Source: Gloeobacter kilaueensis JS1 (GTDB lineage Bacteria; Cyanobacteriota; Cyanobacteriia; Gloeobacterales; Gloeobacteraceae). From it: a DNA stretch of 32,000 nt. Positions 2 through 26,065 of the stretch are shown here, in pieces. A program made the translations under genes and the position numbers. The first letter of the stretch is position 1, and each line of letters begins with the position of its first letter. The stretch is from contig NC_022600.1 in the NCBI RefSeq assembly GCF_000484535.1, positions 3,990,234 through 4,022,233 on the forward strand. Direction: 5' to 3'. The notes beneath the pieces are model-generated. The model did not search any database. It saw only the letters and a program-made list of their open reading frames with translations, and was not told the DNA's origin.

Positions 2-826
2 GTGCAACTGGCCCGCGCCGATTACGAGCGCGAGAGCGCTCTCTACAAAAAAGGGATCAGTGCGCAGCGCGAGCAGCAGGCGGCCTTGGCCAGGCTCGAC
101 GGCACCCTCTCAGAACTGGCGGCGGCAAAATCGACCGAGGCGGCGGCCCGTTCCAGCCTGCAGGCGGCCCGCGCGCGTTTGAACGCCCTGCGCCAGGCCA
201 CCGGCAGCAGCATCACCGACGAACTTGCCCTTAAAAGTCCGGTCAGCGGCATCGTCGTCTCCCGGATGATCCAGCCAGGCCAGGTGGTCAACCCGGCCAC
301 CGCCGGAACCAGCAACGCCGAGGACCATCTGTTTACGATTACAAGCCTCGCCGAAGTCTGGGCAATGCTCGAAGTGCCCCAATCGGAGGTGGCGGGCCTC
401 AAGCTCGGCGCGCCGGTGCAATTTACGAGCGAAGTCGCCCCCGGCGAAGCGTTCAAAGGCCGGATCATCCGGCTGGGTGAAACCTTCGATCCCCAGGCGC
501 GTACGGCCAGTGTCCGCGTCGCCATCGCCAACCCGCACGGTACTCTCAAGCCGGGAATGCTCGTGCTCGCCCAGGCGATCTCCGGCGGCAGTGCCCGGCC
601 AGTGCTGGCGGTGCCCACCGCCGCCATCCAGCAGATAGACGGCAAGGACGTGGTCTTTGTGCGCACCGCACCCCACCGCTACCGCCAGCAACCGGTGGTG
701 CTGGGCGAGCGCAACGCTCAGCTTACCCAGATCGTCTCCGGTCTTACGGCGGGTACCGAAGTGGTGAGCGACGGCTCCTTCGTCCTCAAATCGGAAGCCC
801 TCAAGGCCACCCTGGAGGGCGAGTAA
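2..826 (+). CDS. RND efflux periplasmic adaptor (membrane-fusion protein, HlyD/CzcB-like); 5' end cut by window edge
   Basis: The frame is open from the window start. An Ala/Gln/Arg-rich coiled-coil hairpin (AAKSTEAAARSSLQAARARLNALRQ) is followed by lipoyl/beta-barrel-type segments (LKSPVSGIVVSRMIQPGQVV, FKGRIIRLGETFDPQARTASVRVAIANP, LKPGMLVLAQ). The stop overlaps the pump ATG (TAATG at 824-828), which is typical adaptor-pump coupling. Confidence 0.85.
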   Translation: MQLARADYERESALYKKGISAQREQQAALARLDGTLSELAAAKSTEAAARSSLQAARARLNALRQATGSSITDELALKSPVSGIVVSRMIQPGQVVNPATAGTSNAEDHLFTITSLAEVWAMLEVPQSEVAGLKLGAPVQFTSEVAPGEAFKGRIIRLGETFDPQARTASVRVAIANPHGTLKPGMLVLAQAISGGSARPVLAVPTAAIQQIDGKDVVFVRTAPHRYRQQPVVLGERNAQLTQIVSGLTAGTEVVSDGSFVLKSEALKATLEGE

Positions 827-3800
827 TGACCAGAGCCCTCGATCGCGAGAATGCGCGCCTCACCCAGCCACCGGCCCCTTCGGGCCTGCTGGAACGGCTG
901 GTGATCGGGGCGCTCAAATTTCGCGTCCTGGTCCTCGCTGCCACGCTGCTTGCGGTGCTGGGCGGCGTCTACGCCTTTCTAAACCTGCGGGTCGATGCGG
1001 TGCCCGACATCTCCAACATCCAGGTGACGGTCACCACCAACGCCCGTGGCCTCGCTCCCCAGGAGACCGAACAGTACATTACCTATCCGATCGAGCTGGC
1101 GCTGCAGGGGATGCCGCACCTGACGCGGCTGCGATCGATCTCCAAGTACGCCCTCTCGCAGGTAACGGCGGTCTTCGAGGACGGCACCGACATCTACTGG
1201 GCCAGACAACAGGTCTCCGAGCGCCTGAAGACGGCAGAAAGTGCAATTCCTAAAAGTATCGACGCCCAGATCGCCCTCGGTCCCATCGCCACCGGCCTCG
1301 GCGAGGTCTACCAGTTCGAGGTGCGCGGCTCCGGCTACAGTCTGATGCAGCTAAGGGACATCCTCGACTGGCAGATCATTCCGGCCCTGAAGAGCGTGCC
1401 GGGGGTGGACGAAGTCGAGGCGATGGGCGGGGCGGCAAAAGAGTATCAAGTCTGGCTGGAGCCGGAGAAGCTCCACGGCTACCACATCATGCCCACCGAG
1501 GTGATGCGGGCGCTGGAGAACAACAACGCCAACGCCGGAGGCGGCTACGCGGTCGATAACAACAACCAGGTGCTGCTCAGGGGCGAGGCGCTGTTGCGCA
1601 ACGTGGGCGACATCGGCAACGTCATGGTCCACCGCGACGCGAAGGGCGTGGTGCGCGTGCGCGATTTGGGCCGGGTGGTGGAGGGCAAAAAGCTCTCCCA
1701 GAGCATCGTCACCCAGAACGGCGAGGGCGAGACGGTGATCGGCATCGTCCTGATGCGCAAGGGCGAAAATTCGGAGCAGGTCGTCCGCCGGGTGCAGGCC
1801 AAACTCGACGCCCTCGCTCCGACCCTGCCCCCCAACGTCCGGGTCGTCACCTTCTACAATCGCGGCACGCTCATCGACCGGACGATCGACACGGTCTGGC
1901 ACAACCTGGCAGTCGGTGCCCTGCTGGTGGTCGTCGTCCTCTTCGTCGTCCTGGGCAACCTGCGCGGCGGCCTCATCGCTGCCCTCGCGATTCCGATCGC
2001 CCTGCTGGGAGCGATCGCCTTTCTTGTCATCACCAACACCTCCGGCAACCTGCTCAGCCTCGGGGCGATCGACTTTGGGATTTTAATCGACGGTTCGGTG
2101 GTGATGGTCGAGAACATCCTGCGGCGGCTTAGCGAGGCCAAACCGCGCGATGCGGCAGAACAACTGGCCGTCGTCGAGCGGGCGAGCGCGGAGGTGGCGC
2201 GGCCCATCTTCTTTGCGGTGCTCATCATCACCGTCGTCTACGTGCCGATTTTGTTTTTGACCGGCGTGGCGGGCAAGACCTTTCAGCCGATGGCCCTTAC
2301 CGTCGTCTTCGGTCTGCTCGCAGCTCTTGTCATTGCCCTGTTTGTCACCCCGGCCCTTGCCTCTTTGCTGTTGGGCGAGCACCCCAAAGAAGAAGAAACC
2401 TTTTTGCTGCGCGCCCTCAGGCCCATTTACACCCGTGCCCTCGACTGGTGCCTTGGCCGTCCCTGGCCGACGGCTCTGGTTGCGGTGGGGTTATTTGCCG
2501 CGAGCCTCACCCTGATTCCGGGTCTGGGTACCGAATTTATTCCCACCCTCAAAGAAGGCTCGATCGTTCTCACGGTCGATCGCCCCGTATCCGGCTCGCT
2601 CTCGGCGGCGGCGGCCCAGACGACGCTCATGGAAAAAGTCGTGCGCACCTTCCCGGATGTCGAGACGGTCGTCGCGAGGAGCGGCCACCCGGAGCAGGCG
2701 TTCGATCCGATGGGTCCGGAGGAGACGGACTTTTTTATCATCCTCAAGCCCCAGGAACAGTGGACCACCGCTCGCACCCAGCAGGAGATCGAGGAGGCGA
2801 TCGCCAAAAAACTTGACCAGGAGGTGCCCGGCGCAGCGATCGCCTTCGGTCAGCCCATCGAGCAGCGGATGAACGAACTGGTCTCCGGGGCCAAGGGCGA
2901 CGTGGCCATCCGCATCTTTGGGCCGGATCTGGATATCCTGCGCAAGCTCGGCCTGCAGATAGCGGGAGCGGTGGGCCGCGTGGCGGGGGCGAGCGATGTC
3001 AAAGTCGAGCAGGTGGCGGGCCTGCCGGTGGTGAGCGCCCAGATCAAGCAGGCTGCCCTCTCCGCCTACGGCGTCACCGCTCAAGACGCCCTCGATACGA
3101 TCTCCGCCGCCGTAGACGGCAAGATCGTGGGTACGATCTTTCAGGGCAAACCGCGCTACGACCTCACGGTGCGCTTCGCCCCGGACGCCCTCAGTCGGCC
3201 CGAAGACCTGGGTACCCTGCCGGTGGCGATGTCCGAAGGCGACCTGGTTCCGCTTTCCCAGGTGGCGAACATCCGCCGCGTCGAGAGCGCCGCCGAAATT
3301 GCCCACCTCGAAGGCGACCGCAACCTGACCGTTCAGCTGAACGTCAATGGCCGCGACCTGGGCGGCTTTGTAGCAGCAGCCCAGCAGGCCGTGCGCGACA
3401 AAGTGGCCCTGCCCGCCGGTTATCGGCTGGAGTGGGGCGGCCAGTTCGAGAATCTCCAGGAGGCAGAATCCCGCCTGTTTATCCTCGTGCCCCTCTCCCT
3501 TGCCCTGATATTCATTCTTCTCTACGCCTCCTTCGGCAGCCTGCAGCCTGGCATATTGATCTTCCTCAACATCCCCCTTGCCCTCACAGGCGGCCTGCTC
3601 GCCCTCGCCCTCAGAGGCATGTCTTTGTCTGTCACCGCCGGCGTCGGCTTTATTGCCCTGTTTGGGGTGGCGGTGCTCAACGGCGTCGTGCTCGTCTCCA
3701 CCATCCGCCGCATCGAGGCCGAGCAGCACCTCGAACCATTAGAGGCCGCCCGTGCCGGAGCCGAGTTGCGCCTCAGGCCCGTCTTGATGACCGCCCTGGT

Positions 3801-3975
3801 CGCCTCGCTGGGTTTCATTCCGATGGCTGTCGCCACCTCCGTCGGTGCCGAAGTGCAGCGCCCCCTCGCCACCGTCGTCATCGGCGGCCTGATCACCGCC
3901 ACCCTCCTCACCCTGCTGGTATTGCCCAGCCTCTACCCGGTGATCTGTGGCCGGCGCAGTTCGAAGCGAGCCTGA
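826..3975 (+). CDS. Heavy-metal-efflux type RND inner-membrane pump (CzcA/CusA family)
   Basis: The 1049-aa product has the RND layout of an N-terminal TM helix, a large periplasmic loop and TM bundles, repeated twice. Family-typical strings include VTVTTNARGLAPQETEQYITYPIE, GAIDFGILIDGSVVMVENI and VQRPLATVVIGGLITATLLTLLVLPSLY. It is coupled to the upstream adaptor. Metal specificity cannot be read from the sequence. Confidence 0.93.
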   Translation: MTRALDRENARLTQPPAPSGLLERLVIGALKFRVLVLAATLLAVLGGVYAFLNLRVDAVPDISNIQVTVTTNARGLAPQETEQYITYPIELALQGMPHLTRLRSISKYALSQVTAVFEDGTDIYWARQQVSERLKTAESAIPKSIDAQIALGPIATGLGEVYQFEVRGSGYSLMQLRDILDWQIIPALKSVPGVDEVEAMGGAAKEYQVWLEPEKLHGYHIMPTEVMRALENNNANAGGGYAVDNNNQVLLRGEALLRNVGDIGNVMVHRDAKGVVRVRDLGRVVEGKKLSQSIVTQNGEGETVIGIVLMRKGENSEQVVRRVQAKLDALAPTLPPNVRVVTFYNRGTLIDRTIDTVWHNLAVGALLVVVVLFVVLGNLRGGLIAALAIPIALLGAIAFLVITNTSGNLLSLGAIDFGILIDGSVVMVENILRRLSEAKPRDAAEQLAVVERASAEVARPIFFAVLIITVVYVPILFLTGVAGKTFQPMALTVVFGLLAALVIALFVTPALASLLLGEHPKEEETFLLRALRPIYTRALDWCLGRPWPTALVAVGLFAASLTLIPGLGTEFIPTLKEGSIVLTVDRPVSGSLSAAAAQTTLMEKVVRTFPDVETVVARSGHPEQAFDPMGPEETDFFIILKPQEQWTTARTQQEIEEAIAKKLDQEVPGAAIAFGQPIEQRMNELVSGAKGDVAIRIFGPDLDILRKLGLQIAGAVGRVAGASDVKVEQVAGLPVVSAQIKQAALSAYGVTAQDALDTISAAVDGKIVGTIFQGKPRYDLTVRFAPDALSRPEDLGTLPVAMSEGDLVPLSQVANIRRVESAAEIAHLEGDRNLTVQLNVNGRDLGGFVAAAQQAVRDKVALPAGYRLEWGGQFENLQEAESRLFILVPLSLALIFILLYASFGSLQPGILIFLNIPLALTGGLLALALRGMSLSVTAGVGFIALFGVAVLNGVVLVSTIRRIEAEQHLEPLEAARAGAELRLRPVLMTALVASLGFIPMAVATSVGAEVQRPLATVVIGGLITATLLTLLVLPSLYPVICGRRSSKRA

Positions 3976-3985
3976 AGTCAGCTAT
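3929..3985 (+). repeat. Direct-repeat copy A: the authentic 3' terminus of the RND pump CDS plus 10 nt downstream
   Basis: It shares a 22-nt perfect block (gcctctacccggtgatctgtgg) and an 18-nt perfect block (gagcctgaagtcagctat) with 7365-7420, in the same order and orientation. Confidence 0.7.
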
Positions 3986-4712
3986 GAATTGTTCCGTCGG
4001 GCAAAATCGTACCTGTTAGCTTCGCTTCTTCGGTGAGATTGCCATCCCATACCGCACCGGTCAAATCCGCTTCTCTTAGATCGGCGTAGCTGAAGTCGCA
4101 GGCAGTGAGGTTGGCTCGGCGCAAATTTGTGCGGTACAAGATAGCGCCCATCAAATCCGATCCACTCAAATCCGCTTCGCTGAGATTGGCTGATTCCAGA
4201 CGACATCCTCGCATATCCGACTGCCGTAACAGCGCCCGGTTGAAATTTGCACCACCGGCCAGTGTCTCCAGCAGACGCGCCCGATCAAGACAGGCTCCCT
4301 GCAAATCTGCTTCTCTTAAATCTGTATTGTCGAGATTTGCTTCGGTCAAATCCGCGCCAACAAGCAGGGCTCCCCGCAGATCGGCAGTGCCAAGATCCAT
4401 AAATCGCAACGAACGGTTCTGTTCTGGCTGGTTCACTATTTCCCAAACCAGATGCCAGCGGGCATCCATGCGCGTGTTTTCGTCGATGAGAACTCCACGG
4501 AGGTTGACAGCACCAAGATACGTCCTGGAAAGGTTGGTTCCGCGTAAATCAGCGCGGTCGATACGGGCACCACCAAGATTCGCATCGCTGAGATCCAGAC
4601 CGCGTAAATCCGGTGAATCCATCGACACATGGACTTGGTGCCAATACCCTTTCAGCCATCGTCCAATAGTGTATGCTTGCAGTAGTTCTTCTACAGTACG
4701 AATTGTTTTCAT
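3978..4712 (-). CDS. Pentapeptide-repeat protein
   Basis: The 244-aa product has long runs of the A(D/N)LXX pentapeptide pattern (ADLRGTNLSRTYLGAVNLRG; ADLTEANLDNTDLREADLQGACLDRARL; ANLSEADLSGSDLMGAILYRTNLRRANLTACDFSYADLREADLTGA). It has an ATG start and lies 23 nt downstream of the protease gene on the same strand. Confidence 0.9.
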   Translation of the reverse strand: MKTIRTVEELLQAYTIGRWLKGYWHQVHVSMDSPDLRGLDLSDANLGGARIDRADLRGTNLSRTYLGAVNLRGVLIDENTRMDARWHLVWEIVNQPEQNRSLRFMDLGTADLRGALLVGADLTEANLDNTDLREADLQGACLDRARLLETLAGGANFNRALLRQSDMRGCRLESANLSEADLSGSDLMGAILYRTNLRRANLTACDFSYADLREADLTGAVWDGNLTEEAKLTGTILPDGTIHS

Positions 4713-4735
4713 GCCAATAAGACTACGTAGGAAAT

Positions 4736-6022
4736 CTACAGTACATCTTTAAATTCAAGAATGATGTTGAGCAGCTTATTCCTCCTTTTTACAATTAGGT
4801 GTACTTTGTTGTTTGGCAGCTGTTGGAGTTTATCTACAATCTCTTTGTGCGTCAATTTTCCATACGGTACTCCATCAATATTTAGGATCTGATCCCCTGA
4901 GCGTATGTCAGCGTGCTCAGCTAATCCTTTTCTTTCAATAGCTGTTACTTTCCCACTAGAAATATCAACGCTCATGCCAACAGCAACATAGTGAAAAGCT
5001 TCACCAAAACGCACACTTTTTCGCAAGGCAATTTGTCTATGTCTTACATCGAATATCACAAAAAAACGAGAGAGTATATCATTACCTATAACGCCAGCCG
5101 TGTCAGTAACTTCCGTTGACTTACTCGATTTCGATATTAATCCTATCAGAGGCTTTATAATCTCAAATTGCCCCAGCTTAAGCGCTGTCGCCCGTACTCT
5201 GTAGAGAACGTCTGTACCTCCAAGACCCTCTGTAGAGTACTTTCTTATGTTGGGGTAGCGCCTGTAAAGGTTGTTTCTTTCGACAAATGGTTGGTACAAC
5301 GTTAATGAGGTTGAAGAGCCAGTATCTATATCGAACCGAGCTGAAATGCCATCAATTTTTCCTTCAATGGCTGGCATTCCTAGCGAACTAACGACAAAGG
5401 GGAAGACGACGTTCTCGCAGTTGGGAGCTACTTTTTGTGAGTTATTGAAGTAAGCCTTCAAATTAATATAATCAAGTTGAATAAGGAAATTTTGAAAGAA
5501 ATCTAATCCGAGAATAGCATCAATTTTTGAAAGTGCTGAAGAGTCAGGCATTACTGCCGAAGGAAGCACACGTAGAATAGTTTTACTCAACTTCAAGTTA
5601 CCAATCTCAAGATTTTCTACTGTTGTTTCTTGAGATGTTTGTACAGGAGAACTTCCATTGCTCCCAATAAACTCAGGACGCATGAGAGAGCGGGTCGGCA
5701 ATCTAAGTTTTTGCGCAACTCTTTCAGATATGAAGTTAATGGTGGCCCCTGAGTCAAGGATAAGATTAAACGGTCCCTGACCATTTATGTACGCATCGAA
5801 TGCAATGAGCCCAGGAGGAGGAGAAGAACGAAAAGGAACAACAATTTCAGACTCAATTTGCTTCGCCTGGTAACTGTCAGCTTTACAAGCCGTAGAGCTA
5901 TAGATTTCTGCAAGTGCAGGAGTCGTCAAAAATGGCAGAATGAAAACCGCTTTTAAAGCAGTCTGTAGAAGAACAGAAGCAGAGCTACTGCTCACAGTTG
6001 CTTTTATCTGTTCGTGCTCCAC
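4736..6022 (-). CDS. Secreted aspartic protease with two retropepsin-like lobes and a C-terminal PDZ domain
   Basis: The 428-aa product has a GTG start and a signal-peptide-like N-terminus (KAVFILPFLTTPALA|E). Two aspartic-protease catalytic motifs lie in separate halves (LILDSGATINFIS near residue 88, FDIDTGSSTSLTL near residue 232). The C-terminus is PDZ-like (RSGDQILNIDGVPYGKLTHKEIVDKLQ). It has low G+C and A/T-ending codons. Confidence 0.8.
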   Translation of the reverse strand: MEHEQIKATVSSSSASVLLQTALKAVFILPFLTTPALAEIYSSTACKADSYQAKQIESEIVVPFRSSPPPGLIAFDAYINGQGPFNLILDSGATINFISERVAQKLRLPTRSLMRPEFIGSNGSSPVQTSQETTVENLEIGNLKLSKTILRVLPSAVMPDSSALSKIDAILGLDFFQNFLIQLDYINLKAYFNNSQKVAPNCENVVFPFVVSSLGMPAIEGKIDGISARFDIDTGSSTSLTLYQPFVERNNLYRRYPNIRKYSTEGLGGTDVLYRVRATALKLGQFEIIKPLIGLISKSSKSTEVTDTAGVIGNDILSRFFVIFDVRHRQIALRKSVRFGEAFHYVAVGMSVDISSGKVTAIERKGLAEHADIRSGDQILNIDGVPYGKLTHKEIVDKLQQLPNNKVHLIVKRRNKLLNIILEFKDVL

Positions 6023-7247
6023 CCCACGAGTTGAAGACTCCGCCAGAAAATTCTGGACTACCGTCTTTATCGACTCCAGCCGAAATACTCACTGTAGTCT
6101 TTCCACCGGGATGACTCTGGCATGTATCGACATTCACATGCGCGCCATCTTTGTTGATTTTAGTTTTAATATCCGTATATCCACCATCCACCTCTGGGTT
6201 GCTTGTACCAGTATTAGCAGGAGTAGTGGGTTTGGAAATAGGGCCACCTAAATCACCGGCTTTAGTGCTGAGCTTGTTTCCAACGCCTGTATCGTTGCCC
6301 GCTAGCAGAGTTGGGGTAGAGCCATTCTGTGTATCTGCCTTCTCTGGTAAACCTGTATAGGTCTCGCTGGAAGCAGTAACAAAGTTGCTTACTCCTGAAG
6401 GCATTCCATCGCAACCTTCAGCTATACCTGCTCTATTGTCAGCCGCAGTAGGATAGCTGACTTCTCCAGTTCTGACTTTGTCCTGATTGACTATTTGCAA
6501 GTTGAAATTCTCAAAGCCGTTGTCTAGGCCATATTCAAAACCGTTACTGTAGTAGCCTTGCTCGCCTGCAGCAACGAGCAGTGCGGGATCAACCGGCAGG
6601 CTCTGCTCGCCTTGAGAAACATTCCACTCGTCCCAACTATTATCCGGCAAGTCAAAGCCTGTATCGTTGCTGTCGTTGTCTACCTGTCCGTAATTGCCGA
6701 TCTCCTGCTCCCGGAGCGAGCCATAGGACTCCTCACCACTTAAGGCAGACTCTCCGTCAGCATCCTCGTACTGGTTGTAGCTGCTGGAAAAACTCGCGAA
6801 TCCTGTGTTTTGTTCTTCATCAAACGGATTAAAGCCGTATGCATCTTGCTGCTGGCTATACCCATAATTGTCAGCACTCTCGAAGTCTGTTTCTGGCTGC
6901 TGGTCAGAGGGGAAGTTGATGTTGTCCCAAATATCGCTATTGGGAAAGCCGAGGGCAGCATTGCCTATGAAAGCGCCCTGCTCACCGTACTGTGTATCTG
7001 TAGAGAAGTCGTAGTCAGTACCGTCACTTTCTAAGTACTGTTGCCCATAGCTGTTGTTGTCATCCACAAGATAGGACTGCTCGCCATCGCCAGCCTCTGT
7101 GTGCCCTTCCTCGTCAGTGCCGTTGCCAGACTCTGAATACTCTTGTTCGTCGCCTTCGCTTGCCGAATACTCTCGCTCGTTTTCGTTCCCGAAGCCATCG
7201 CCGGCAAAATTCTGCTGTTGTTCGCCAAAAAGGTTTTCCTCGTCCAT
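5985..7247 (-). CDS. Hyper-acidic low-complexity protein of unknown function, with no recognisable family
   Basis: The 420-aa ORF has an ATG start preceded by an AGGTG SD-like motif 5 nt upstream. It is the only long ORF in this interval and is co-directional with the protease, which it overlaps by 38 nt. By my count, residues 1-256 contain about 60 D/E but only 2 Arg and no Lys. They are rich in N/Q/G/S with interspersed Y/F/W. No signal peptide is apparent. Confidence 0.65.
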   Translation of the reverse strand: MDEENLFGEQQQNFAGDGFGNENEREYSASEGDEQEYSESGNGTDEEGHTEAGDGEQSYLVDDNNSYGQQYLESDGTDYDFSTDTQYGEQGAFIGNAALGFPNSDIWDNINFPSDQQPETDFESADNYGYSQQQDAYGFNPFDEEQNTGFASFSSSYNQYEDADGESALSGEESYGSLREQEIGNYGQVDNDSNDTGFDLPDNSWDEWNVSQGEQSLPVDPALLVAAGEQGYYSNGFEYGLDNGFENFNLQIVNQDKVRTGEVSYPTAADNRAGIAEGCDGMPSGVSNFVTASSETYTGLPEKADTQNGSTPTLLAGNDTGVGNKLSTKAGDLGGPISKPTTPANTGTSNPEVDGGYTDIKTKINKDGAHVNVDTCQSHPGGKTTVSISAGVDKDGSPEFSGGVFNSWGGARTDKSNCEQ

Positions 7248-7364
7248 GACGCACCTGCAGAAAGGGGTTGCTTCTGTGCAATGTAAGCCATTAATTTGGA
7301 GTCGTCAAGAACTATTCGGGGGAAATACAGTGTCTGGGGCAACCTGCTCAAGTTCGTTTTCGAT

Positions 7365-7420
7365 GCCTCTACCCGGTGATCTGTGGGCAGCGCGAGAAAA
7401 GAGAGCCTGAAGTCAGCTAT
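7365..7420 (+). repeat. Direct-repeat copy B: displaced, out-of-frame duplicate of the RND pump 3' terminus
   Basis: It has the same 22-nt and 18-nt perfect blocks as 3929-3985. They are separated by 16 nt here versus 17 nt in copy A, and that spacer sequence has diverged. No pump coding sequence lies upstream of it. Confidence 0.7.
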
Positions 7421-7553
7421 AGACCTCTTGCATGCATGTCCAGGAGCGGTGTCCGACGATGTGGTGGGCAAAACCTTTGTAAGAGCAAGTCGAGACGATG
7501 AATTTCTCGAACCGAGAAGTTAAACTTCCAAACAGTTGATCGAACAGTATGCG

Positions 7554-8126
7554 ATGATGCTAACTCCGCGAGTTCTCGAACAAGCCCTGGAAATTCTTGG
7601 AGAGTTACTTGCTGAGCGTGGGTCACCCTATGGGCTTGCTGTCATCGGGGGTGGAGGACTGGCTTTATTGGGACTGATAGACCGCGCTACGCGAGACATC
7701 GACGTGGTTGCCCGCGTAGAAGGTGCAGGGTACATCTCGGCTGAGCCCCTGCCGCCTGTGCTCAAAGAAGCGGTTGAGCAAACGGCTCTGCTGCTCGATC
7801 TGGATCGTAGCTGGCTGAATGGAGCCCCAACGGACCTCCTGCGGTTTGGCCTGCCCCAAGGTTTTCGAGAAAGAGCGCTGGTACGCCGATACAGTGCGCT
7901 GACCCTGCAACTTGCTAGTCGCTACGACCAGATTCACTTCAAATTATTCGCAGCGGTGGATCAAGGAGCAAAGAGTAAACACTTCGCGGATCTCAAGCGA
8001 CTACAGCCATCGACGGAGGAGTTGCTGGCAGCCGCTCGCTGGTGTCTGATTCAGGCCGGTGGGATCGAGGGTGATCTGCGTGCGGCTCTAAGCGCACTGG
8101 GGGTACCGGGCGATGTCGAGCTTTAG
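7554..8126 (+). CDS. Minimal nucleotidyltransferase-fold protein (pol-beta superfamily; AbiEii/DUF6036-like)
   Basis: The N-terminal motif hGGGGLALLGLIDRATRDIDVV matches the G-[GS]...D-x-D signature of pol-beta-fold NTases. A downstream helical part (DQIHFKLFAAVDQGAKSKHFADLKRL) resembles the second half of AbiEii-type proteins. The ORF opens at TTG 7536, and the first ATGs are at 7554 and 7557, so the start is uncertain. The 3' end overlaps the next gene by 14 nt. Confidence 0.7.
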   Translation: MMLTPRVLEQALEILGELLAERGSPYGLAVIGGGGLALLGLIDRATRDIDVVARVEGAGYISAEPLPPVLKEAVEQTALLLDLDRSWLNGAPTDLLRFGLPQGFRERALVRRYSALTLQLASRYDQIHFKLFAAVDQGAKSKHFADLKRLQPSTEELLAAARWCLIQAGGIEGDLRAALSALGVPGDVEL

Positions 8127-9081
8127 AGAACAGTTGTCGGAGTACACTTTGCTGCTGCTCTGGAGTTTGTGGACAGAGTTAGGAGTAGCTGGGCTTCATC
8201 GATACCACACCGATTGCCTGGTTGATCCGGAAGCACTGGTCCTGCTCACTGGCTGGCTGGGCCAGTCAGATCCGAGGTTGCAGGAGGAAGTGTTTTCCGA
8301 TTGGTGCCGCCGCTACGGAAATCTCCTGTCACTACAGCGCGTTTATGGCCTGGCAAAATCTTTTGATTATTTAGATCTCAAAGACTCATTTGATTTGATT
8401 GCGCAATCGCTGGATAAGAAACCTCCCAGGCATCTAACTCAGCAGATGCACAGTGGTTCCAGCGGAAAGTCCCGGCTACCATCCTTGACTCAGCCTTCGC
8501 TACTGTTGCTGCGCCTGGCAGCTATTTTTGGGGTTGGCAACCGGACCGTAACGATTGCCGCTTTACTGGCTGAACCGAATGGTCTGAGCGCGTCGGATAT
8601 TGCTTTTATCTGCGGTTATAGCAAGCGCAATGTGGCGAATACGCTGGAAGCGCTGCACCTGGGAGGCTTGCTTCACAAACTAGAAGTCAAAAACAGGCTC
8701 CAATACCATCTGACCAAGTCCAAGCAACTGCTGAGCCTGATTGGTCCACTGCCTGAGAACATGACCGGCTGGCTCTTTGTATTCAGTTTTATAGCGCTCT
8801 GGACCCACTATTCCCAGCAGAACGACGGAGCTTCCACGCTGAGGCGGGCAGTATCTGCCGTGAAATTGATGAAGGGGATGCATTCTGTTCTTACCCTGAT
8901 CGGCTGTTCGCCGCCGATCCTGGAAGGCGAGCCAGAGAAAGATCTGGAGCAAATCGAGGTGTGGGTTCTACGGACAAATGCTGAAATTGCAAAGGGTACC
9001 TCGGTTCTACTGAAACACTCCTTTCTGTTGCCGCCCCTAACTGCGGACTTCTTTATAAGAGACATTCAACCTTCACGGTAA
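8113..9081 (+). CDS. Winged-helix (ArsR/MarR-like wHTH) domain protein of unknown function, partner of the NTase
   Basis: The 322-aa product has an ATG start lying inside the end of the upstream gene. A central wHTH-like segment is present (TVTIAALLAEPNGLSASDIAFICGYSKRNVANTLEALHLGGLLHKLEVKNRLQYHLT). The N-terminal ~130 aa and C-terminal ~110 aa are unrecognised. Confidence 0.6.
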   Translation: MSSFREQLSEYTLLLLWSLWTELGVAGLHRYHTDCLVDPEALVLLTGWLGQSDPRLQEEVFSDWCRRYGNLLSLQRVYGLAKSFDYLDLKDSFDLIAQSLDKKPPRHLTQQMHSGSSGKSRLPSLTQPSLLLLRLAAIFGVGNRTVTIAALLAEPNGLSASDIAFICGYSKRNVANTLEALHLGGLLHKLEVKNRLQYHLTKSKQLLSLIGPLPENMTGWLFVFSFIALWTHYSQQNDGASTLRRAVSAVKLMKGMHSVLTLIGCSPPILEGEPEKDLEQIEVWVLRTNAEIAKGTSVLLKHSFLLPPLTADFFIRDIQPSR

Positions 9082-9464: not shown

Positions 9465-10253
9465 TCAGCCAGGTTCAAGGGTGATGTCCATCTGATAGAA
9501 CTTGAAGGTATTCTCCTCGCTCGGTTGGTCGCAGGCCACCAGACGATAGCGATCGAGCACGTCGGCTATAAAATCTGGCTTCTCGTGCTCCGGCAGACAC
9601 CATGTCCAGGCAACGAAGGTGACCTGACCGAAGGCGAAGAATGCCTCGCGGGAACCGAAATCCCAGGCTTTGTCCGCCGTGCGCAGGTGCAGGATTTTCA
9701 GGCCGTTTTGCTCGGCTCTGGCTGCATACTGCTCCGGTGTCAGGTGCAGATAAGGATCGCGGAAATCTTGAAAGGAGGTGGACCAGCGGGGCGATTGTCG
9801 CGTCTGCTCAAGCACGTCTTCGAGGCTCGGGCGCTCGCCTTTGGGGACGAGGCGGAGTTGGGCCCGGCCATGGGGACGCAGGGCAGTGTGAATGGAATGT
9901 AAAGCAGCATCCTGCTCGGGTATCCAGTGGAGGGCGTTGAAGGAGACGATGAGATCGAATTCGCTCTTGAAGGGCAGGTGGCGGGCATCGGCCACCTCAA
10001 AGCGCAGCCGGGGCCAGTCGGCGGGGGCAAAGTGTGACGAGGCGAAGCTAATCATCTGCTCGGAGCTATCGATGCCCAAGACCGCTCCTGCAGGAACGCG
10101 CTCAGCGATCTGCGCGGTAATCTTGCCGTTGCCGCAGCCGATATCGAGCACTTGCTCTGTACCGTCGAGTTTCAGCAAAGCCAGCACCTCGTCGGCCATC
10201 GCGCGCTGCAGTGCCGATATCTGGGTGTACTGGGCGGCGTTCCATTCGACCAC
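9465..10253 (-). CDS. Class I SAM-dependent methyltransferase (trans-aconitate methyltransferase/Tam-like)
   Basis: The 262-aa product has a GTG start with AAGGAG 6 nt upstream. The N-terminal W-N-x-x-x-Y segment and SAM motif I (VLDIGCGNGKIT) are followed by GIDSSEQMI and FDLIVSFNALHWIP, as in Tam-type enzymes. Confidence 0.85.
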   Translation of the reverse strand: MVEWNAAQYTQISALQRAMADEVLALLKLDGTEQVLDIGCGNGKITAQIAERVPAGAVLGIDSSEQMISFASSHFAPADWPRLRFEVADARHLPFKSEFDLIVSFNALHWIPEQDAALHSIHTALRPHGRAQLRLVPKGERPSLEDVLEQTRQSPRWSTSFQDFRDPYLHLTPEQYAARAEQNGLKILHLRTADKAWDFGSREAFFAFGQVTFVAWTWCLPEHEKPDFIADVLDRYRLVACDQPSEENTFKFYQMDITLEPG

Positions 10254-16257: not shown

Positions 16258-17163
16258 ATGGTCCAGAGCTGGTCCCCTGTCCTGACAGCGGACGGATCGT
16301 TTACTTTCTATAGCGCCGAATTTGAGCAGGCTTTTCACAGCACCAGCGGTGCCCGTCAAGAAGCCCTGCACAAGTTCGTCTTGCCCAGTGGCCTGCTGGA
16401 TCGGCCTGCTCCGATCCGCGTACTCGATATTTGCTACGGTCTGGGCTACAACAGCGCCGCCCTGCTCGATGCGCTCTGGCAGGTGCGACCGGCGGTGCGG
16501 GTCGAAATTCTGGCCCTCGAGCGCGATCTGACCATCCCTCGGGCTGCCTGGGGCAAGGGCTGGCTCGCCGGTTGGCCCCGCGCAGAGATGCTTTTGGGCC
16601 ACCTGGCCCAGACGGGAGCGGTCGAGACAGAACCACTAGCAGCCCGGCTCATCGTCGGCGATGCCCGGCAGACGATCCAGCAGGTGCCCCCGGCCTGGGC
16701 GGACGGCATCTTCCTCGATCCGTTCTCGCCGGAGCGCTGCCCGATGCTCTGGTCGGTAGAATTTTTGCGCCTGGTGGCCCGGCGTCTGCAGCCGGACGGG
16801 ACGCTGGTGAGTTACGCCTGCGGGGCGGCGGCCCGCCGGGCTTTGCAACTGGGTGGCCTTTTTGTCGGCTCGACGAAGCCGGTGGGCCGCCGCAGCCCCG
16901 GCACGGTTGCCAACCACCGGGGCGGCCTGCCGCCTCTATCGCGGCGCGAAGAAGAGCATCTTCTGACCAGGGCCGCCGTGCCCTACCGCGATCCGGACTT
17001 GAACGCCGACGCTGTCACCCTGCAGCAGAGGCGGGCTGCCGAGCAGGCAGGTAGTGCCCTGGAGCCCACCTCCCGCTGGAAGCGGCGCTGGGCCCTCAGG
17101 AAAAACGCTGCTGTGGAGGCAGGTCGTGCCCGCCAAAGAGCAGACAGCTCCCCGACGCCGTAG
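16258..17163 (+). CDS. MnmC-type SAM-dependent methyltransferase domain protein (DUF752-like; probable tRNA 5-methylaminomethyl-2-thiouridine pathway)
   Basis: Motifs present are VLDICYGLGYNSAA and the hallmark DGIFLDPFSPERCPMLWSVEFL (D-x-F-x-P-x-x-x-P-x-x-W), with no FAD oxidoreductase domain. The first ATG at 16258 is preferred over TTG at 16204. The Arg-rich C-terminal tail overlaps the umuC 3' end. Confidence 0.75.
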   Translation: MVQSWSPVLTADGSFTFYSAEFEQAFHSTSGARQEALHKFVLPSGLLDRPAPIRVLDICYGLGYNSAALLDALWQVRPAVRVEILALERDLTIPRAAWGKGWLAGWPRAEMLLGHLAQTGAVETEPLAARLIVGDARQTIQQVPPAWADGIFLDPFSPERCPMLWSVEFLRLVARRLQPDGTLVSYACGAAARRALQLGGLFVGSTKPVGRRSPGTVANHRGGLPPLSRREEEHLLTRAAVPYRDPDLNADAVTLQQRRAAEQAGSALEPTSRWKRRWALRKNAAVEAGRARQRADSSPTP

Positions 17164-18415
17164 CCGTCGGCAACTCGCCCCAGCGGGTACTCCAGCGAGG
17201 CGAGCAGAACCGGGAGCGGCCCCGCCAGGACTGCCGGGTGCCCTCGACGGCAAAGCGCACGCTGCCTGGGCCGTGCCTGGCGTTGAGGGCGTCGAGGGTA
17301 GACATCAACCGGCGGTCCTCTTCCACTTCTACGTCCCCAAACAGGCTGAGTTGCACGGTGTTTTGATCGTGCAAGTTGCTCAGCACCACACCAGCTTTCA
17401 CAAATTCCACCCCCTCGCGCCAGAGGGTTTCGATCAGGGCAAGCGCCTGCCGCTGCAGGAGTCGCGTGTCGTTGGCGGCGCACGTCAGGCTACAGCTTAT
17501 CGAATTGGTATAAAAGTTGGGCTCGAAGCGGTCGGACTGGACAAATACGCCCAGTTCCCCGGCTACCAGTTGCTCGCGCCGCAGCTTGCCCGCCGCTCTG
17601 GCAGCGAAGGTGGCCACCGCCTCCTGCAATAGCTCAAGGTCGGTGAGGGGCAGAGCGAACGAGCGGCTGACGACGATCGACTTTCTGGCCGCCGGTCTGG
17701 TAGAGAGCGGCAGACAGCTCTCACCCCGCAGTTCGAGCACTGTTCTTAGAGCAACGACGCTCATCCGGGCGCGCACCCAGCCGTCGGGCAATTCGCTCAG
17801 CTGCAGGGCCGTCGGGCACCCCCGCTCGGCGAGCAGCCTCGCCCAGCGCGGACCGATGCCCCAGACTTTACCCACCGGCAGACGCTCCAGCAGTTGCTTT
17901 TCTGCTCTCTCCTCCAGTAGCGCCAGAACGCCGACATCGATTAGATCCTGCTTGATGAGCCAGTTTGCCGCCTTTGCCAGCGTCTTGGTCCGGCCTGCGC
18001 CGATGCTCACCTCGATGCCTGTCCAGCGGGCAATTGTCCGCCGGATGAGTGAGAGCAGGGCGGTGAGCTTTTCGGGCTCGACCTCCAGCCTGAGGAACAC
18101 TTCGTCGATCGAGTACACCTCGATCGCGCTGGAGAACTGGCGCAAGCAGGCGACAACCCGGCGGGACATGTCGCCGTACAGCTCGAAGTTGGAGGAGCGC
18201 ACCTGCAAGCCGGCGGTCCGGATGAGTTTGCGAATCCGAAAAAAGGGCACCCCCCGGACGATGCCCAGTTGCTTTGCTGCCGCATTGAGGGCGATCACAC
18301 AGCCGTCGTTGTTGCTGAGCACCACCAGCGGCACCGTCGCCAAGCGCGGCTCGAAGACCGCTTCGCAGGCGGCGTAAAAACTGTTGCAATCGACGAGGGC
18401 GAACGTGCGGAGCAT
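17096..18415 (-). CDS. umuC: Y-family translesion DNA polymerase, UmuC subunit of Pol V
   Basis: The N-terminus FALVDCNSFYAACEAVFEP...VVLSNNDGCVIA matches the Y-family catalytic motif. The C-terminal QSWRGRSRFCSPRWSTRW resembles the UmuC tail. The start was chosen at ATG 18415, 10 nt after the umuD stop, and the ORF track extends to 18511. Confidence 0.92.
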   Translation of the reverse strand: MLRTFALVDCNSFYAACEAVFEPRLATVPLVVLSNNDGCVIALNAAAKQLGIVRGVPFFRIRKLIRTAGLQVRSSNFELYGDMSRRVVACLRQFSSAIEVYSIDEVFLRLEVEPEKLTALLSLIRRTIARWTGIEVSIGAGRTKTLAKAANWLIKQDLIDVGVLALLEERAEKQLLERLPVGKVWGIGPRWARLLAERGCPTALQLSELPDGWVRARMSVVALRTVLELRGESCLPLSTRPAARKSIVVSRSFALPLTDLELLQEAVATFAARAAGKLRREQLVAGELGVFVQSDRFEPNFYTNSISCSLTCAANDTRLLQRQALALIETLWREGVEFVKAGVVLSNLHDQNTVQLSLFGDVEVEEDRRLMSTLDALNARHGPGSVRFAVEGTRQSWRGRSRFCSPRWSTRWGELPTATASGSCLLFGGHDLPPQQRFS

Positions 18416-18425
18416 CACAACTTTT

Positions 18426-18848
18426 TCAAAGAGCGTGGATGACGTGGGTGACGACGCCCCAGATTGCCAGGTCACTTTCTGCCCGCACCTCCAGGGGCGC
18501 GTAGGCGGCATTTTCCGGCACCAGCCACACCTGCCGGTCCTGCAGGCGGAGGCGCTTGAGCGTCAGTTCGCCGTCGATGATGGCGACGACGATACTGTGA
18601 TCGGCAGGTTCGAGGCTGCGATCGACGATGAGCAAGTCCCCCGGATGGATGCCCGCCCCGGTCATGCTCGTGCCGCTCGCCCGCAGATAAAACGTCGCCG
18701 CCGGGTGGCGGACCAGATGCTCGTTGAGATCGAGCCACTCGTCTATGCAGGCGTCCTCCGCCGGACTCGGAAAACCCGCCGGCACCGGCTGGCTAAATAA
18801 AGGCAGCGCCCAGCGCACCCCAAAAACCGCTCCCAGCCCATCGCCCAT
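18426..18848 (-). CDS. umuD: UmuD, S24 self-cleaving peptidase subunit of Pol V
   Basis: The 140-aa product is collinear with enterobacterial UmuD. It has the cleavage-site context PA|GFPSPAED, the nucleophile motif ASGTSM and the Lys in ELTLKRL. GGAGG lies 6 nt upstream of the ATG. Confidence 0.92.
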   Translation of the reverse strand: MGDGLGAVFGVRWALPLFSQPVPAGFPSPAEDACIDEWLDLNEHLVRHPAATFYLRASGTSMTGAGIHPGDLLIVDRSLEPADHSIVVAIIDGELTLKRLRLQDRQVWLVPENAAYAPLEVRAESDLAIWGVVTHVIHAL

Positions 18849-22107: not shown

Positions 22108-22944
22108 TTAGAGCCGGTCGCGGTTTTTGGTCCGCACCCGCTCGTAGAGCTGCTCCATCACCGCGATAAACGAATTGTCCCGGTGCCAGAAAGCCGGGTA
22201 GTCTCCCTGGGTCTTGACCAGAAGCGCTGCGACGGCGGTGGGCCTGGGGCTCTGGGGGGGCGGCAGGTGTTTTTCTCCGTGCCAGAAGCGCTTGAGGTCG
22301 ATGAGTTCTGGAAGGGGAACCGTGCCGGGCCGCGTGTAATAAGTATCAATCGCTACCGGGTCCAGGGGCGTCGCTTCGAGCTGACTGGCGAGGGCGCGCC
22401 CCAGGGGAGATTTGAGCAGTTCGGCCTGCAGAGCCTCGCGGCTCAGCCCCCGCAACTCGAAGAGCAAAAAGGGATTGGCGTCCAACTCGGCTGCCAGGCG
22501 ATAGCAGACACCAGCCACGTGCTTGCAGGGGTTCGCCCAGTCCGGACAGGAACAGCTGGTCTGAAAATCCCAACTGCCGACGGGCAAAAGCCGCTCGTCT
22601 GAGCGCTTAAAACTCGCCTCGATGTCGTCGGGCATCTGGTTCATCAACAGTTGCGCCACACTGCTCGCCTGGGTGGATAGGTGCCGGATGATCCGCTCCC
22701 AGGCAGGGGCAGGAATGTTCGTCAGCGCAATCGTCGTCTGGTAGCGGGGTTCCTTGTAGACCCCGTAGTAAGGGTTGACGTTGCCCCGCACCGTCGCCCG
22801 GATCGTCGCACCGTCGATCTCAAAGTGCAGCAGACGATCCGGCCCCGAGTAGGCGTTGCCCCGGCTGAGGCGCGCCCCATCGCAAAAGAGCCGCAGCGCA
22901 TCGAGAAAGCGCTTTCCCCACCAGGTACGGCTGTGCTGGACCAT
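22108..22944 (-). CDS. SWIM zinc-finger protein
   Basis: The CxCx(n)CxH motif is present (CSCPDWANPCKHVAGVCY). The gene starts 10 nt after the stop of the SNF2 gene on the same strand. Confidence 0.85.
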   Translation of the reverse strand: MVQHSRTWWGKRFLDALRLFCDGARLSRGNAYSGPDRLLHFEIDGATIRATVRGNVNPYYGVYKEPRYQTTIALTNIPAPAWERIIRHLSTQASSVAQLLMNQMPDDIEASFKRSDERLLPVGSWDFQTSCSCPDWANPCKHVAGVCYRLAAELDANPFLLFELRGLSREALQAELLKSPLGRALASQLEATPLDPVAIDTYYTRPGTVPLPELIDLKRFWHGEKHLPPPQSPRPTAVAALLVKTQGDYPAFWHRDNSFIAVMEQLYERVRTKNRDRL

Positions 22945-22954
22945 CGGCTGTCTC

Positions 22955-25900: not shown

Positions 25901-26065
25901 GAGGGGCAAGGACAGATCCTCGCAGAGCAGTTTCTGCAGCGTTGGTCCGCTCAAATAGCCGGGATGGCCGCCGCCTGCTGTCTCCGCCCACAGATAAAAC
26001 GCGCCATCCTGAATAAAAGGATCGTCCGTTGGATCTAAAAGCCAGGTGCCGTGCAGGATCTGCAT
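22955..26065 (-). CDS. SNF2-family DEAD/H-box ATPase/helicase with a long N-terminal SNF2-associated region
   Basis: Motif I is [15 protein letters not shown], motif II is [11 protein letters not shown] and motif III is [15 protein letters not shown]. The helicase-C motifs are [15 protein letters not shown] and [21 protein letters not shown]. About 570 aa of unassigned sequence lie N-terminal to the ATPase core. Confidence 0.93.
   Translation of the reverse strand: [1036 protein letters not shown]

What the first reader, a model, noticed from the sequence alone, without database searches (positions are those of the whole stretch)
3978..7247. Tightly packed minus-strand trio with no described functional link: hyper-acidic disordered protein, secreted double-retropepsin/PDZ protease, pentapeptide-repeat protein
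The three genes are co-directional. The first pair overlaps by 38 nt and the second pair is separated by 23 nt, so they probably form one transcript driven from the 7248-7364 region.

The combination is odd. The first product has no signal peptide and is essentially a polyanionic low-complexity chain. The second is an exported aspartic protease with a substrate-tethering PDZ domain. The third is a cytoplasmic right-handed beta-helix type protein, a class often described as a DNA mimic or protein-interaction scaffold.

I know of no characterised system with this composition. The acidic protein could be a substrate, a trans-acting inhibitor or pro-segment, or a cargo of the protease. Those roles are pure hypothesis.

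The foreign composition and the repeat-bounded location suggest the trio was acquired as a functional unit.
Basis: inference. Interest (0 to 1): 0.7.

Follow-up and report, generated by a model that had tools for sequence, protein, structure and literature searches.

The report
Acidic-protein and aspartic-protease gene pair
In the cyanobacterium Gloeobacter kilaueensis, a gene for a very acidic, mostly disordered protein found in no other organism sits directly upstream of a gene for an exported aspartic protease; this pair, with a shared promoter, occurs three times in the genome, while the pentapeptide-repeat gene next to it here is only a passenger.

Summary
All three minus-strand genes are real, with the stated coordinates, spacing and domains. 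The window is Gloeobacter kilaueensis JS1.

The conserved unit is a pair, not a trio. It consists of a promoter and 5' leader, the acidic gene, and an overlapping gene for a signal-peptide-bearing, two-lobed aspartic protease with a PDZ domain.

The genome holds three old paralogous copies (synonymous sites near or at saturation):
- the window copy, the only one with an intact acidic gene;
- a second copy whose acidic gene carries one in-frame TAG at codon 23;
- a third copy whose acidic gene has collapsed to a 67-codon remnant.

The acidic protein has a polyanionic N-terminal disordered region of variable length and a conserved C-terminal region of about 140 residues with two cysteines. It has no relative outside this species among 1.8 to 5.8 billion proteins. 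The pentapeptide-repeat gene accompanies only the window copy.

The trio lies in a 3.4-kb low-GC insert bounded by an imperfect 57-nt direct repeat of the 3' end of the neighbouring RND pump gene. No recombinase is present.

All three protease paralogs keep GC3 near 0.36 in a genome with GC3 near 0.77, which is unexplained.

Function is inferred only. The acidic protein is most likely an accessory substrate or partner of the protease.

The parts
3929..3985 (+). Left copy of the 57-nt direct repeat. It holds the last 15 codons and the stop of the RND pump gene (826-3975), plus the stop and last two codons of the pentapeptide-repeat gene on the other strand.
   Evidence: (D4, D5)
3978..4712 (-). 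Pentapeptide-repeat protein gene (244 aa). It is a passenger in this copy only and is not part of the conserved module.
   Evidence: Pfam Pentapeptide E 1.8e-39. Scores are far below the Qnr, MfpA and HetL cut-offs. No close ortholog. Absent from the other two modules. GC3 0.50.
4736..6022 (-). Exported two-lobed aspartic protease with a C-terminal PDZ domain (428 aa; alternative start at GTG 5995 gives 419 aa). Signal-peptide-like N-terminus: aa 1-38. Lobe 1: about aa 59-193 (5848-5444), with D90-S-G. Lobe 2: about aa 205-335 (5410-5018), with D233-T-G. PDZ: about aa 345-425 (4990-4748).
   Evidence: Pfam. D90/G92 and D233/G235 invariant in 26 homologs (T234 also invariant in the 5-sequence set). 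AlphaFold pLDDT 80.7. Best solved match 9IY9, then pepsin-family enzymes. GC3 0.36.
5985..7247 (-). Hyper-acidic protein gene (420 aa). Aa 1-270 (7247-6438) are a polyanionic, aromatic-rich region predicted to be disordered, with 4 K+R. Aa 281-420 (6407-5988) are a conserved C-terminal region with Cys376 and Cys418, ending in NCEQ.
   Evidence: Only relative is P0154. C-terminal alignment z = 21 against shuffles; N-terminal z = 0.8.
5985..6022 (-). Overlap of the acidic gene's end with the protease gene's start. The alternative start GTG 5995 lies inside the TGT-GAG (Cys-Glu) codons of ...SNCEQ*.
   Evidence: The same tGTGag arrangement occurs in the third module.
7236..7331 (-). Conserved promoter, leader and start element shared by all three modules and by one further gene. 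-35 TTGACG at 7308-7303; -10 TACATT at 7285-7280; Shine-Dalgarno-like GCAGGTG at 7258-7252; ATG at 7247-7245, followed by GAC GAG.
   Evidence: (79% over 91 nt, E 3e-14, to L002; 73% over 94 nt to L086). No RNA structure and no Rfam match.
7365..7420 (+). Right copy of the direct repeat (56 nt). All differences from the left copy lie in its central 17-18 nt.
3986..7364 (.). The 3.4-kb low-GC insert between the two repeat copies. It carries the promoter and the three genes and no recombinase.
   Evidence: No integrase or transposase domain in the window.

Best explanation
**What it is (shown).** The functional unit is a two-gene module restricted to this lineage, not a trio. A conserved sigma-70-type promoter and leader drive an acidic-protein gene. 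The end of that gene overlaps the start of a gene for an exported, single-chain, two-lobed aspartic protease with a PDZ domain. G. kilaueensis JS1 carries three old paralogous copies of the module, and the window copy is the only one with an intact acidic gene. In the window the pair, together with an unrelated pentapeptide-repeat gene, lies in a 3.4-kb insert bounded by a 57-nt duplication of the 3' end of the RND pump gene.

**How it most likely works (inferred).**
- The three genes are transcribed together from the conserved promoter.
- Translation of the protease is coupled to termination of the acidic ORF.
- The protease is exported through its signal peptide.
- The acidic protein is a dispensable accessory partner of the protease. 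It is most likely a substrate whose polyanionic, aromatic-rich chain is cut, possibly after docking through its conserved C-terminal region or tail. This follows the precedent of the bacterial retropepsin-like proteases RimB and RloA, which act on polyanionic (polyglutamate) chains.
- The pentapeptide-repeat protein has no demonstrated role.
For: - **Pair conservation.** The only relative of the acidic protein among 1.84 billion representatives is P0154 (pairwise E 1e-17 over the C-terminal 140 aa; z = 21 against shuffles). P0154 lies directly upstream of a protease paralog in the same genome.
- **Third copy.** It keeps the 5' end (MDEEYLSEDGQEYFPG...) and the 3' end (...TGQNNCEK*) of an acidic gene in one frame, with three stops, immediately before its protease start.
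- **Shared promoter and leader.**
- **Age and constraint.** Protease paralogs are 37-51% identical. dS is 2.3 to saturated and dN is 0.41-0.72, which indicates purifying selection. The acidic C-terminal region is 36% identical between copies, matching the divergence of the proteases.
- **Protease fold and active site.**
- **Signal-peptide-like N-termini in all paralogs.**. Low pLDDT for residues 1-56 with a helix at 18-27.
- **Operon.** No terminator-like site between the genes.
- **Precedent.** RloA has a positively charged substrate channel and cleaves glutamate-rich sequences (PMC12239564). RimB removes polyglutamate (PMC11957791).
- **PRP excluded.**
Against: - No expression, localisation or cleavage data exist.
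- The acidic protein has no signal peptide, and no start codon lies further upstream in frame, yet the protease looks exported. Substrate and enzyme would therefore sit in different compartments unless the acidic protein leaves the cell by another route.
- The acidic gene is interrupted or collapsed in two of three copies, so the protease does not need it.
- The longest run of D/E in the protein is 3 residues (sequence), whereas RloA needs 8 or more consecutive glutamates.
- The tail NC(E/Q)(Q/E/K) does not resemble usual PDZ ligands, which end in a hydrophobic residue (established knowledge of PDZ domains). Its conservation could also come from the overlapping protease start codon.
- All evidence for the pairing comes from one genome.
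Confidence: 0.45

Rival explanations
1. The acidic ORF has no functional link to the protease. It is a fast-evolving, lineage-specific orphan that is merely co-transcribed, or serves only as an upstream ORF that delivers ribosomes to the protease start, and it is being lost.
For: - It is an orphan outside this species.
- It is mostly predicted to be disordered.
- The N-terminal part cannot be aligned between paralogs (z = 0.8).
- It carries a premature TAG in one copy and has collapsed in another, while those protease genes remain intact.
- Its predicted compartment differs from that of the protease.
Against: - The C-terminal 140 aa and both cysteines are conserved across a divergence at which synonymous sites of the adjacent protease genes are saturated.
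- The TAG-interrupted copy has no further stop in 338 codons, so it was constrained until recently.
- The composition of the acidic region (almost no K or R, aromatic-rich) is kept in both copies.
Confidence: 0.25
2. The acidic protein is a cytoplasmic inhibitor or holding factor that keeps the protease inactive before export. This would resemble the signal-less staphostatins co-transcribed with secreted staphopains, or the disordered yeast IA3 inhibitor of proteinase A.
For: - There is no signal peptide on the partner but one on the protease.
- The genes are tightly coupled and overlap.
- A disordered inhibitor of an aspartic protease has a precedent in IA3 (own knowledge).
- Operons pairing a protease with a co-transcribed inhibitor are discussed in PMC3462683.
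Against: - Two of the three protease paralogs persist without an intact partner, although the intact copy could act in trans.
- A 420-aa polyanion is unlike any known compact inhibitor.
- The mature proteases are only mildly basic to neutral (pI 7.9-9.2), so charge complementarity is weak.
- The conserved cysteine pair would suit an oxidising, extracytoplasmic location better.
Confidence: 0.15
3. One reading: all three genes, including the pentapeptide-repeat gene, form one functional system acquired together.
For: - The three genes are co-directional and tightly spaced.
- No terminator-like site lies between them.
- All three lie inside the same repeat-bounded insert.
Against: - The pentapeptide-repeat gene is absent from the other two modules.
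- It has no close ortholog.
- None of the 80 metagenomic protease relatives has an acidic-protein homolog nearby.
- GC3 differs within the trio, 0.50, 0.36 and 0.50.
Confidence: 0.08

Closest known systems
Bacterial 'aspartyl protease family protein' with two Asp_protease_2 lobes and a PDZ domain. The nearest solved structure is PDB 9IY9, a putative endopeptidase from Bacteroides fragilis.
   Same: - Same domain order: two retropepsin-like lobes, each with D-T/S-G, then PDZ, as in homologs from Bacteroidales, Acidithiobacillales and others.
- The lobes match 9IY9 (Foldseek E 2.7e-15; profile E 6.6e-11).
   Different: - Only 18-29% identity to relatives outside Gloeobacter.
- No relative outside Gloeobacter has an acidic upstream partner.
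- No function has been published for this architecture in the searched library.
RimB and RloA retropepsin-like proteases of Pseudomonas (PMC11957791, PMC12239564)
   Same: - Bacterial clan AA aspartic proteases.
- RloA enzymes carry signal peptides.
- Their substrates are polyanionic chains.
- They are encoded in operons with the proteins that make or handle the polyanion.
   Different: - RimB and RloA are single-lobe homodimers without PDZ.
- Their partners are ATP-grasp enzymes (RimK, RloC) that synthesise polyglutamate. Here the polyanion would be encoded by a gene.
- No ATP-grasp gene is nearby.
- The acidic protein has no run of 8 or more Glu.
- TIGR02281 scores 20.8 bits against a cut-off of 57.95.
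Pepsin-family (A1) two-lobed aspartic proteases, including the bacterial shewasins (PMC4814920)
   Same: A single chain with two lobes, each supplying one catalytic Asp. The model matches cathepsin D, plasmepsin and endothiapepsin.
   Different: Sequence matches go to retropepsin-type Pfam families rather than to the pepsin family. TM-scores are only 0.4-0.5. There is an added PDZ domain.
Operons pairing a secreted protease with a signal-less cognate inhibitor (staphopain and staphostatin)
   Same: An exported protease is co-transcribed with an adjacent partner that has no signal peptide.
   Different: Staphostatins are small folded barrels encoded downstream of cysteine proteases. Here the partner is a large acidic disordered protein encoded upstream of an aspartic protease. 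No sequence relation was found.
Pentapeptide-repeat proteins (Qnr, MfpA, HetL, Alr5209-like)
   Same: Tandem pentapeptide repeats (Pfam E 1.8e-39).
   Different: Scores are far below every curated subfamily cut-off, for example Qnr 42.5 against 240 and Alr5209 109.9 against 125.

Membership tests
Clan AA aspartic peptidase, two-lobed single chain | Two homologous lobes, each with a D-T/S-G catalytic motif | tested here: met
   Two Asp_protease_2 stretches. D90-S-G-A and D233-T-G are conserved: D90/G92/D233/G235 invariant in 26 homologs, with A93 and T234 also invariant in the 5-sequence alignment.
Clan AA aspartic peptidase, two-lobed single chain | Pepsin-like two-lobed fold | tested here: met
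   AlphaFold model with pLDDT 80.7. It matches 9IY9 and many pepsin-family structures at probability 1.00 and TM 0.4-0.56.
Clan AA aspartic peptidase, two-lobed single chain | Proteolytic activity sensitive to mutation of the catalytic aspartates | not testable with these tools
   Needs enzyme assays.
PDZ-domain protease | PDZ domain above the Pfam threshold | tested here: met
   PDZ_6 scores 32.8 bits (cut-off 27) and PDZ scores 32.3 bits (cut-off 23.2). There are many PDZ matches in the PDB.
PDZ-domain protease | The PDZ domain binds the C-terminus of a specific ligand | not testable with these tools
   The partner tails NCEQ, NCQE and NCEK are conserved, but they are atypical PDZ ligands and overlap the protease start.
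RimB/RloA-type polyglutamate protease system | Membership of the TIGR02281 clan AA DTGA subfamily | tested here: not met
   20.8 bits against a cut-off of 57.95.
RimB/RloA-type polyglutamate protease system | An ATP-grasp (RimK/RloC) partner gene in the operon | tested here: not met
   No such domain in any neighbouring ORF.
RimB/RloA-type polyglutamate protease system | A substrate with 8 or more consecutive glutamates | tested here: not met
   The longest D/E run in the acidic protein is 3 residues (sequence). The requirement is stated in PMC12239564.
Pentapeptide-repeat protein | Tandem A(D/N)LXX-type repeats above the Pfam threshold | tested here: met
   PF00805 scores 133.3 bits (cut-off 20.2) in 4 stretches.
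Qnr/MfpA DNA-mimic subfamily | A score above the curated NCBIfam cut-off | tested here: not met
   Qnr 42.5 against 240. MfpA 49.9 against 360.
Integrated mobile element with attL/attR | Direct repeats flanking a compositionally deviant insert at the 3' end of a gene | tested here: met
   The 57/56-nt repeats at 3929-3985 and 7365-7420. Insert GC is 0.41-0.53 against 0.64 for the host.
Integrated mobile element with attL/attR | An integrase or other recombinase gene in the element | tested here: not met
   None in the insert or elsewhere in the window.
Integrated mobile element with attL/attR | An empty site in a related genome | tested here: inconclusive
   The nearest RND homologs retrieved are from Obscuribacteraceae at 64% identity. 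No Gloeobacter locus was returned.
Integron gene cassette | An attC site that folds as an imperfect hairpin | tested here: not met
   Neither strand of the repeat folds better than shuffled sequence (z = +0.8 to +1.5).

The most novel reading that the evidence does not exclude
The acidic protein is a gene-encoded polyanion made to be processed by, or to regulate, a dedicated periplasmic two-lobed retropepsin-PDZ protease. This would be a ribosomally encoded counterpart of the RimK/RimB and RloC/RloA polyglutamate systems. Its three paralogous copies would be co-regulated through a shared promoter and kept AT-rich by selection rather than by recent transfer.
Probability: 0.15. Interest if true: 0.65.

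Novelty: new variant of a known kind. Interest (0 to 1): 0.4.

Why it matters
- Bacterial retropepsin-like proteases have only recently been given functions, and those functions involve polyanionic substrates made by ATP-grasp enzymes.
- A protease of this clan genetically paired with an encoded polyanionic disordered protein would give a simple two-gene system for testing how such proteases recognise acidic chains and what the PDZ domain adds.
- The locus also poses an evolutionary puzzle. Three paralogs with near-saturated to saturated synonymous divergence all keep GC3 near 0.36 in a genome with GC3 near 0.77. This suggests either an unsampled low-GC gene pool feeding Gloeobacter or selection on codon composition.
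- The scope is narrow: one species and no experimental data.

Tried and rejected
- **Homologs of the acidic protein.** None in the word-indexed search of 5.8 billion proteins. The exhaustive HMMER search found only the paralog P0154. Nothing in Pfam, NCBIfam, PADLOC or PHROGs. Nothing in phages or viral contigs. None next to 80 metagenomic protease relatives.
- **Compositionally acidic upstream ORFs** next to distant protease homologs: none.
- **Empty-site comparison** through the RND gene: no Gloeobacter locus retrieved.
- **Flanking repeats around the other two modules:** none.
- **Third copy of the 57-nt repeat** at the far end of the low-GC island: none.
- **attC-like folding of the repeat:** rejected.
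- **RNA motif in the conserved leader:** no Rfam match and no consensus structure (-2 kcal/mol).
- **Tandem repeats in the acidic gene:** none.
- **Regular spacing of aromatic residues:** not significant (p = 0.12 and 0.05).
- **Structure of the acidic protein:** too poor for a fold search.
- **Retroelement (Gag-Pro) origin:** rejected. The protease is a two-lobed single chain with a signal peptide, and no reverse transcriptase or integrase is nearby.
- **DNA-mimic or anti-restriction role for the acidic protein:** considered because of the neighbouring defence-like genes, but nothing supports it.
- **Relation of the 158-aa protein** (L002 4799-5275) to the acidic C-terminal region: only a weak motif match (E about 0.1).


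Full report
**Observation**

The three minus-strand ORFs exist as described: 3978-4712 (244 aa), 4736-6022 (428 aa) and 5985-7247 (420 aa). The overlap is 38 nt and the gap is 23 nt.

Pfam assigns pentapeptide repeats to the first ORF (E 1.8e-39). The second has two Asp_protease_2 stretches plus a PDZ domain. The third matches nothing.

The third product has 79 D+E against 16 K+R, a pI of 4.05 and a net charge near -63. AlphaFold predicts it to be unstructured (pLDDT 39.7) apart from three short strands near the C-terminus.

The genes are compositionally foreign. GC3 is 0.50, 0.36 and 0.50, against about 0.8 in flanking genes.

**Source organism**

The protease and the acidic protein are identical to Gloeobacter kilaueensis JS1 entries WP_144080428.1/AGY60027.1 and AGY60028.1, from the 4,724,791-bp chromosome.

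**The protease**

- D90-S-G-A and D233-T-G are conserved: D90, G92, D233 and G235 are invariant across 26 homologs, and A93 and T234 are also invariant in the 5-sequence alignment.
- An AlphaFold model built on that alignment (pLDDT 80.7) best matches PDB 9IY9, a putative endopeptidase of Bacteroides fragilis. It then matches many two-lobed pepsin-family enzymes.
- The enzyme is therefore a single-chain, two-lobed aspartic protease made of two retropepsin-like lobes, followed by a PDZ domain.
- All paralogs have a signal-peptide-like N-terminus, for example ...AVFILPFLTTPALA/EIY. Export is inferred from sequence only.
- The same architecture occurs in diverse bacteria at 21-29% identity.

**The acidic protein is nearly an orphan, and its one relative is informative**

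A word-indexed search of 5.8 billion proteins found only the protein itself. An exhaustive HMMER scan of 1.84 billion representatives found one other protein, P0154 (277 aa, E 8e-5).

Pairwise, the last ~140 residues align at 36% identity (E 1e-17; z = 21 against shuffles). Two cysteines and a matching tail (NCEQ against NCQE) are conserved.

The N-terminal parts do not align (z = 0.8). They share a composition with almost no K or R that is rich in D, E, N, Q, G, S and aromatic residues.

P0154 lies directly upstream of a second Asp_protease_2/PDZ gene. That protease is 37% identical to the window protease. Both belong to G. kilaueensis itself (AGY59964 and AGY59963). By accession numbering they lie about 64 genes from the window pair; this distance is an inference.

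**A third module and a shared promoter**

A third protease paralog, P0003 (51% identity), appeared to stand alone. A DNA comparison then showed a conserved element of about 90 nt upstream of all three modules.
- Window to L002: 79% over 91 nt, E 3e-14.
- Window to L086: 73% over 94 nt.

When aligned, the element contains a -35 box (TTGAC), a 17-nt spacer, a -10 box (TACATT), a Shine-Dalgarno-like GCAGGTG, and ATG GA(C/T) GA. In the window this is the promoter-like site at 7308-7280 and the acidic gene's own start.

The element has no Rfam match and no conserved RNA structure.

A fourth copy precedes an unrelated-looking 158-aa ORF, which has a hydrophobic segment and a weakly similar C-terminal motif.

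**State of the acidic gene in the other two copies**

- **Second module.** The conserved ATG (L086 6742) is in frame with P0154 but is separated from it by a single TAG at codon 23. The 338 codons after the TAG are open and have the same acidic character.
- **Third module.** What follows the conserved ATG is a 67-codon remnant in one frame with three stops: MDEEYLSEDGQEYFPGDGGDDEPYAAADFNNE* ... GSALTGQNNCEK*. Its end overlaps the protease GTG (tGTGag).
- **Link to the window.** The window has the same tGTGag inside ...SNCEQ*, at the alternative protease start 5995.

The ancestral module was therefore promoter, acidic gene and overlapping protease gene. Only the window copy keeps the acidic gene intact.

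**Age and selection**

- Between protease paralogs, dS is 2.3 (window against L002) or saturated. dN is 0.41-0.72.
- Identical codons among identical residues are at the random expectation for comparisons with the L086 copy.
- The paralogs are old and the proteases are under purifying selection.
- The acidic C-terminal region has diverged about as much as the proteases, which fits duplication of the pair as a unit.

**The pentapeptide-repeat gene is not part of the module**

It is absent from the other two modules. Downstream there are a PmbA/TldD gene in one case and an opposite-strand small ORF in the other.

It has no close ortholog. It scores far below every curated subfamily threshold.

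**Distant protease relatives have other neighbours**

Two follow a pair of VWA-domain genes. None of 80 metagenomic loci holds an acidic-protein homolog or a compositionally acidic upstream ORF. No relatives were found in viral contigs or phages.

**The insert and its boundaries**

The trio sits between two copies of a 57/56-nt direct repeat, at 3929-3985 and 7365-7420. The repeat duplicates the last 15 codons and the stop of the RND pump gene.

The outer 22-nt and 17-nt blocks are identical, and none are expected by chance. All differences, including a 1-nt length difference, lie in the central 17-18 nt. This pattern looks like two related sequences joined by recombination in the identical blocks, rather than drift after a duplication. 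That reading is an inference.

Further points about the insert:
- The stop and last two codons of the pentapeptide-repeat gene lie inside the left copy.
- The repeat does not fold like an integron attC site.
- No integrase or transposase is present in the window.
- The other two modules lack such repeats.
- No empty site could be retrieved. The nearest RND relatives were Obscuribacteraceae at 64% identity.

The most likely reading is an integration scar of the att-site or Campbell type, with the recombinase acting in trans or since lost. The mechanism is unresolved.

**Composition puzzle**

All three protease paralogs have GC3 of 0.36, next to host genes at 0.72-0.81. The two acidic genes have GC3 of 0.50-0.58.

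Since synonymous sites of the protease paralogs are saturated, long residence in this genome should have raised their GC3. There are two possibilities. The copies diverged in an unsampled low-GC pool and arrived later. Alternatively, composition is held by gene-specific selection.

The repeated contrast within the module, with the acidic gene higher than the protease gene, argues for gene-specific constraints. It also weakens low GC as evidence of recent acquisition.

**Mechanism**

Shown:
- module architecture;
- paralogy;
- shared promoter;
- overlap of the two genes;
- protease fold and active-site motifs;
- conservation of the acidic C-terminal region.

Inferred:
- co-transcription;
- translational coupling;
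- export of the protease;
- a partner role for the acidic protein.

I favour an accessory substrate or partner role for the acidic protein. Related bacterial retropepsin-like enzymes act on polyanionic chains: RloA has a positively charged channel and cuts glutamate-rich sequences (PMC12239564), and RimB trims polyglutamate (PMC11957791). The protease paralogs also survive without an intact partner.

Four points count against this view:
- The acidic protein has no signal peptide.
- It has no long glutamate run.
- Its tail is an atypical PDZ ligand.
- Conservation of the tail may partly reflect the overlapping protease start.

Rival readings are a cytoplasmic inhibitor of the staphostatin or IA3 type, or no functional link at all.

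**Verdict**

The protease is a member of a known but functionally uncharacterised family. The acidic partner family and its pairing with the protease are new but confined to one species. Interest is moderate.

Noticed in passing
window 7236-7331 (-); L002 7732-7821 and 4765-4815; L086 6662-6753: A conserved promoter, leader and start element (TTCTTGAC, 17 nt, TACATTG ... CCCTTTCTGCAGGTG, 5 nt, ATGGA) lies upstream of all three modules. It also precedes an unrelated-looking 158-aa ORF, which suggests a small co-regulated gene set in G. kilaueensis.
   Followed up: partly
L086 6742-7824: The second acidic paralog (AGY59964, annotated as 277 aa from a TTG start) is in frame with the conserved upstream ATG. 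One TAG at 6808-6810 interrupts it. Without that stop the ORF would be 360 codons.
   Followed up: yes
L002 7811-8011: This is a collapsed remnant of an acidic gene upstream of the 'solo' protease paralog P0003: 67 codons in one frame with three stops. It keeps the MDEE... start and the ...NNCEK* end, which overlaps the protease GTG.
   Followed up: yes
window 4736-6022; L002 8001-9260; L086 7913-9172: All three protease paralogs have GC3 of about 0.36 in a genome with GC3 of about 0.77, even though synonymous divergence between them is near-saturated to saturated. Amelioration has not happened, or the copies arrived separately from a low-GC source.
   Followed up: partly
window 7536-9081 (+): An overlapping gene pair sits just right of the insert, in the same low-GC island. 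One gene is a weak AbiEii/DUF6036-like nucleotidyltransferase (E 1e-4). The other is a 322-aa protein with a weak MarR-type helix-turn-helix match. This could be a type IV toxin-antitoxin-like pair.
   Followed up: no
window 9465-10253 (-): A class I SAM methyltransferase matches the PADLOC model mad2 (mads_2) at E 1.3e-21. It lies in the moderately low-GC stretch that runs to about 11100.
   Followed up: no
window 2-3975 (+): The closest relatives of the HlyD-type and RND pump operon are from Obscuribacteraceae (64% identity), not from other Gloeobacter. The pump operon itself may be horizontally acquired, although its GC3 is host-like.
   Followed up: no
window 3973-3980: The RND gene and the pentapeptide-repeat gene converge, with only 2 nt between their stop codons and no terminator-like site. 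This fits a recent junction.
   Followed up: no
L002 4799-5275: A 158-aa ORF shares the conserved promoter. It has an internal hydrophobic segment (AVLLAAGCLFCLLPAPLRA) and ends ...CRSYAGGSTTTS...GECPQ, weakly echoing the C(Q)S..GG.T..S ... NC(E/Q) motifs of the acidic proteins (E about 0.1).
   Followed up: partly
window 22108-26065 (-): A SWIM zinc-finger protein gene is adjacent to an SNF2-family helicase gene with DUF3670. A UmuC/DinB-type polymerase gene lies at 17096-18511. These are ordinary context.
   Followed up: no
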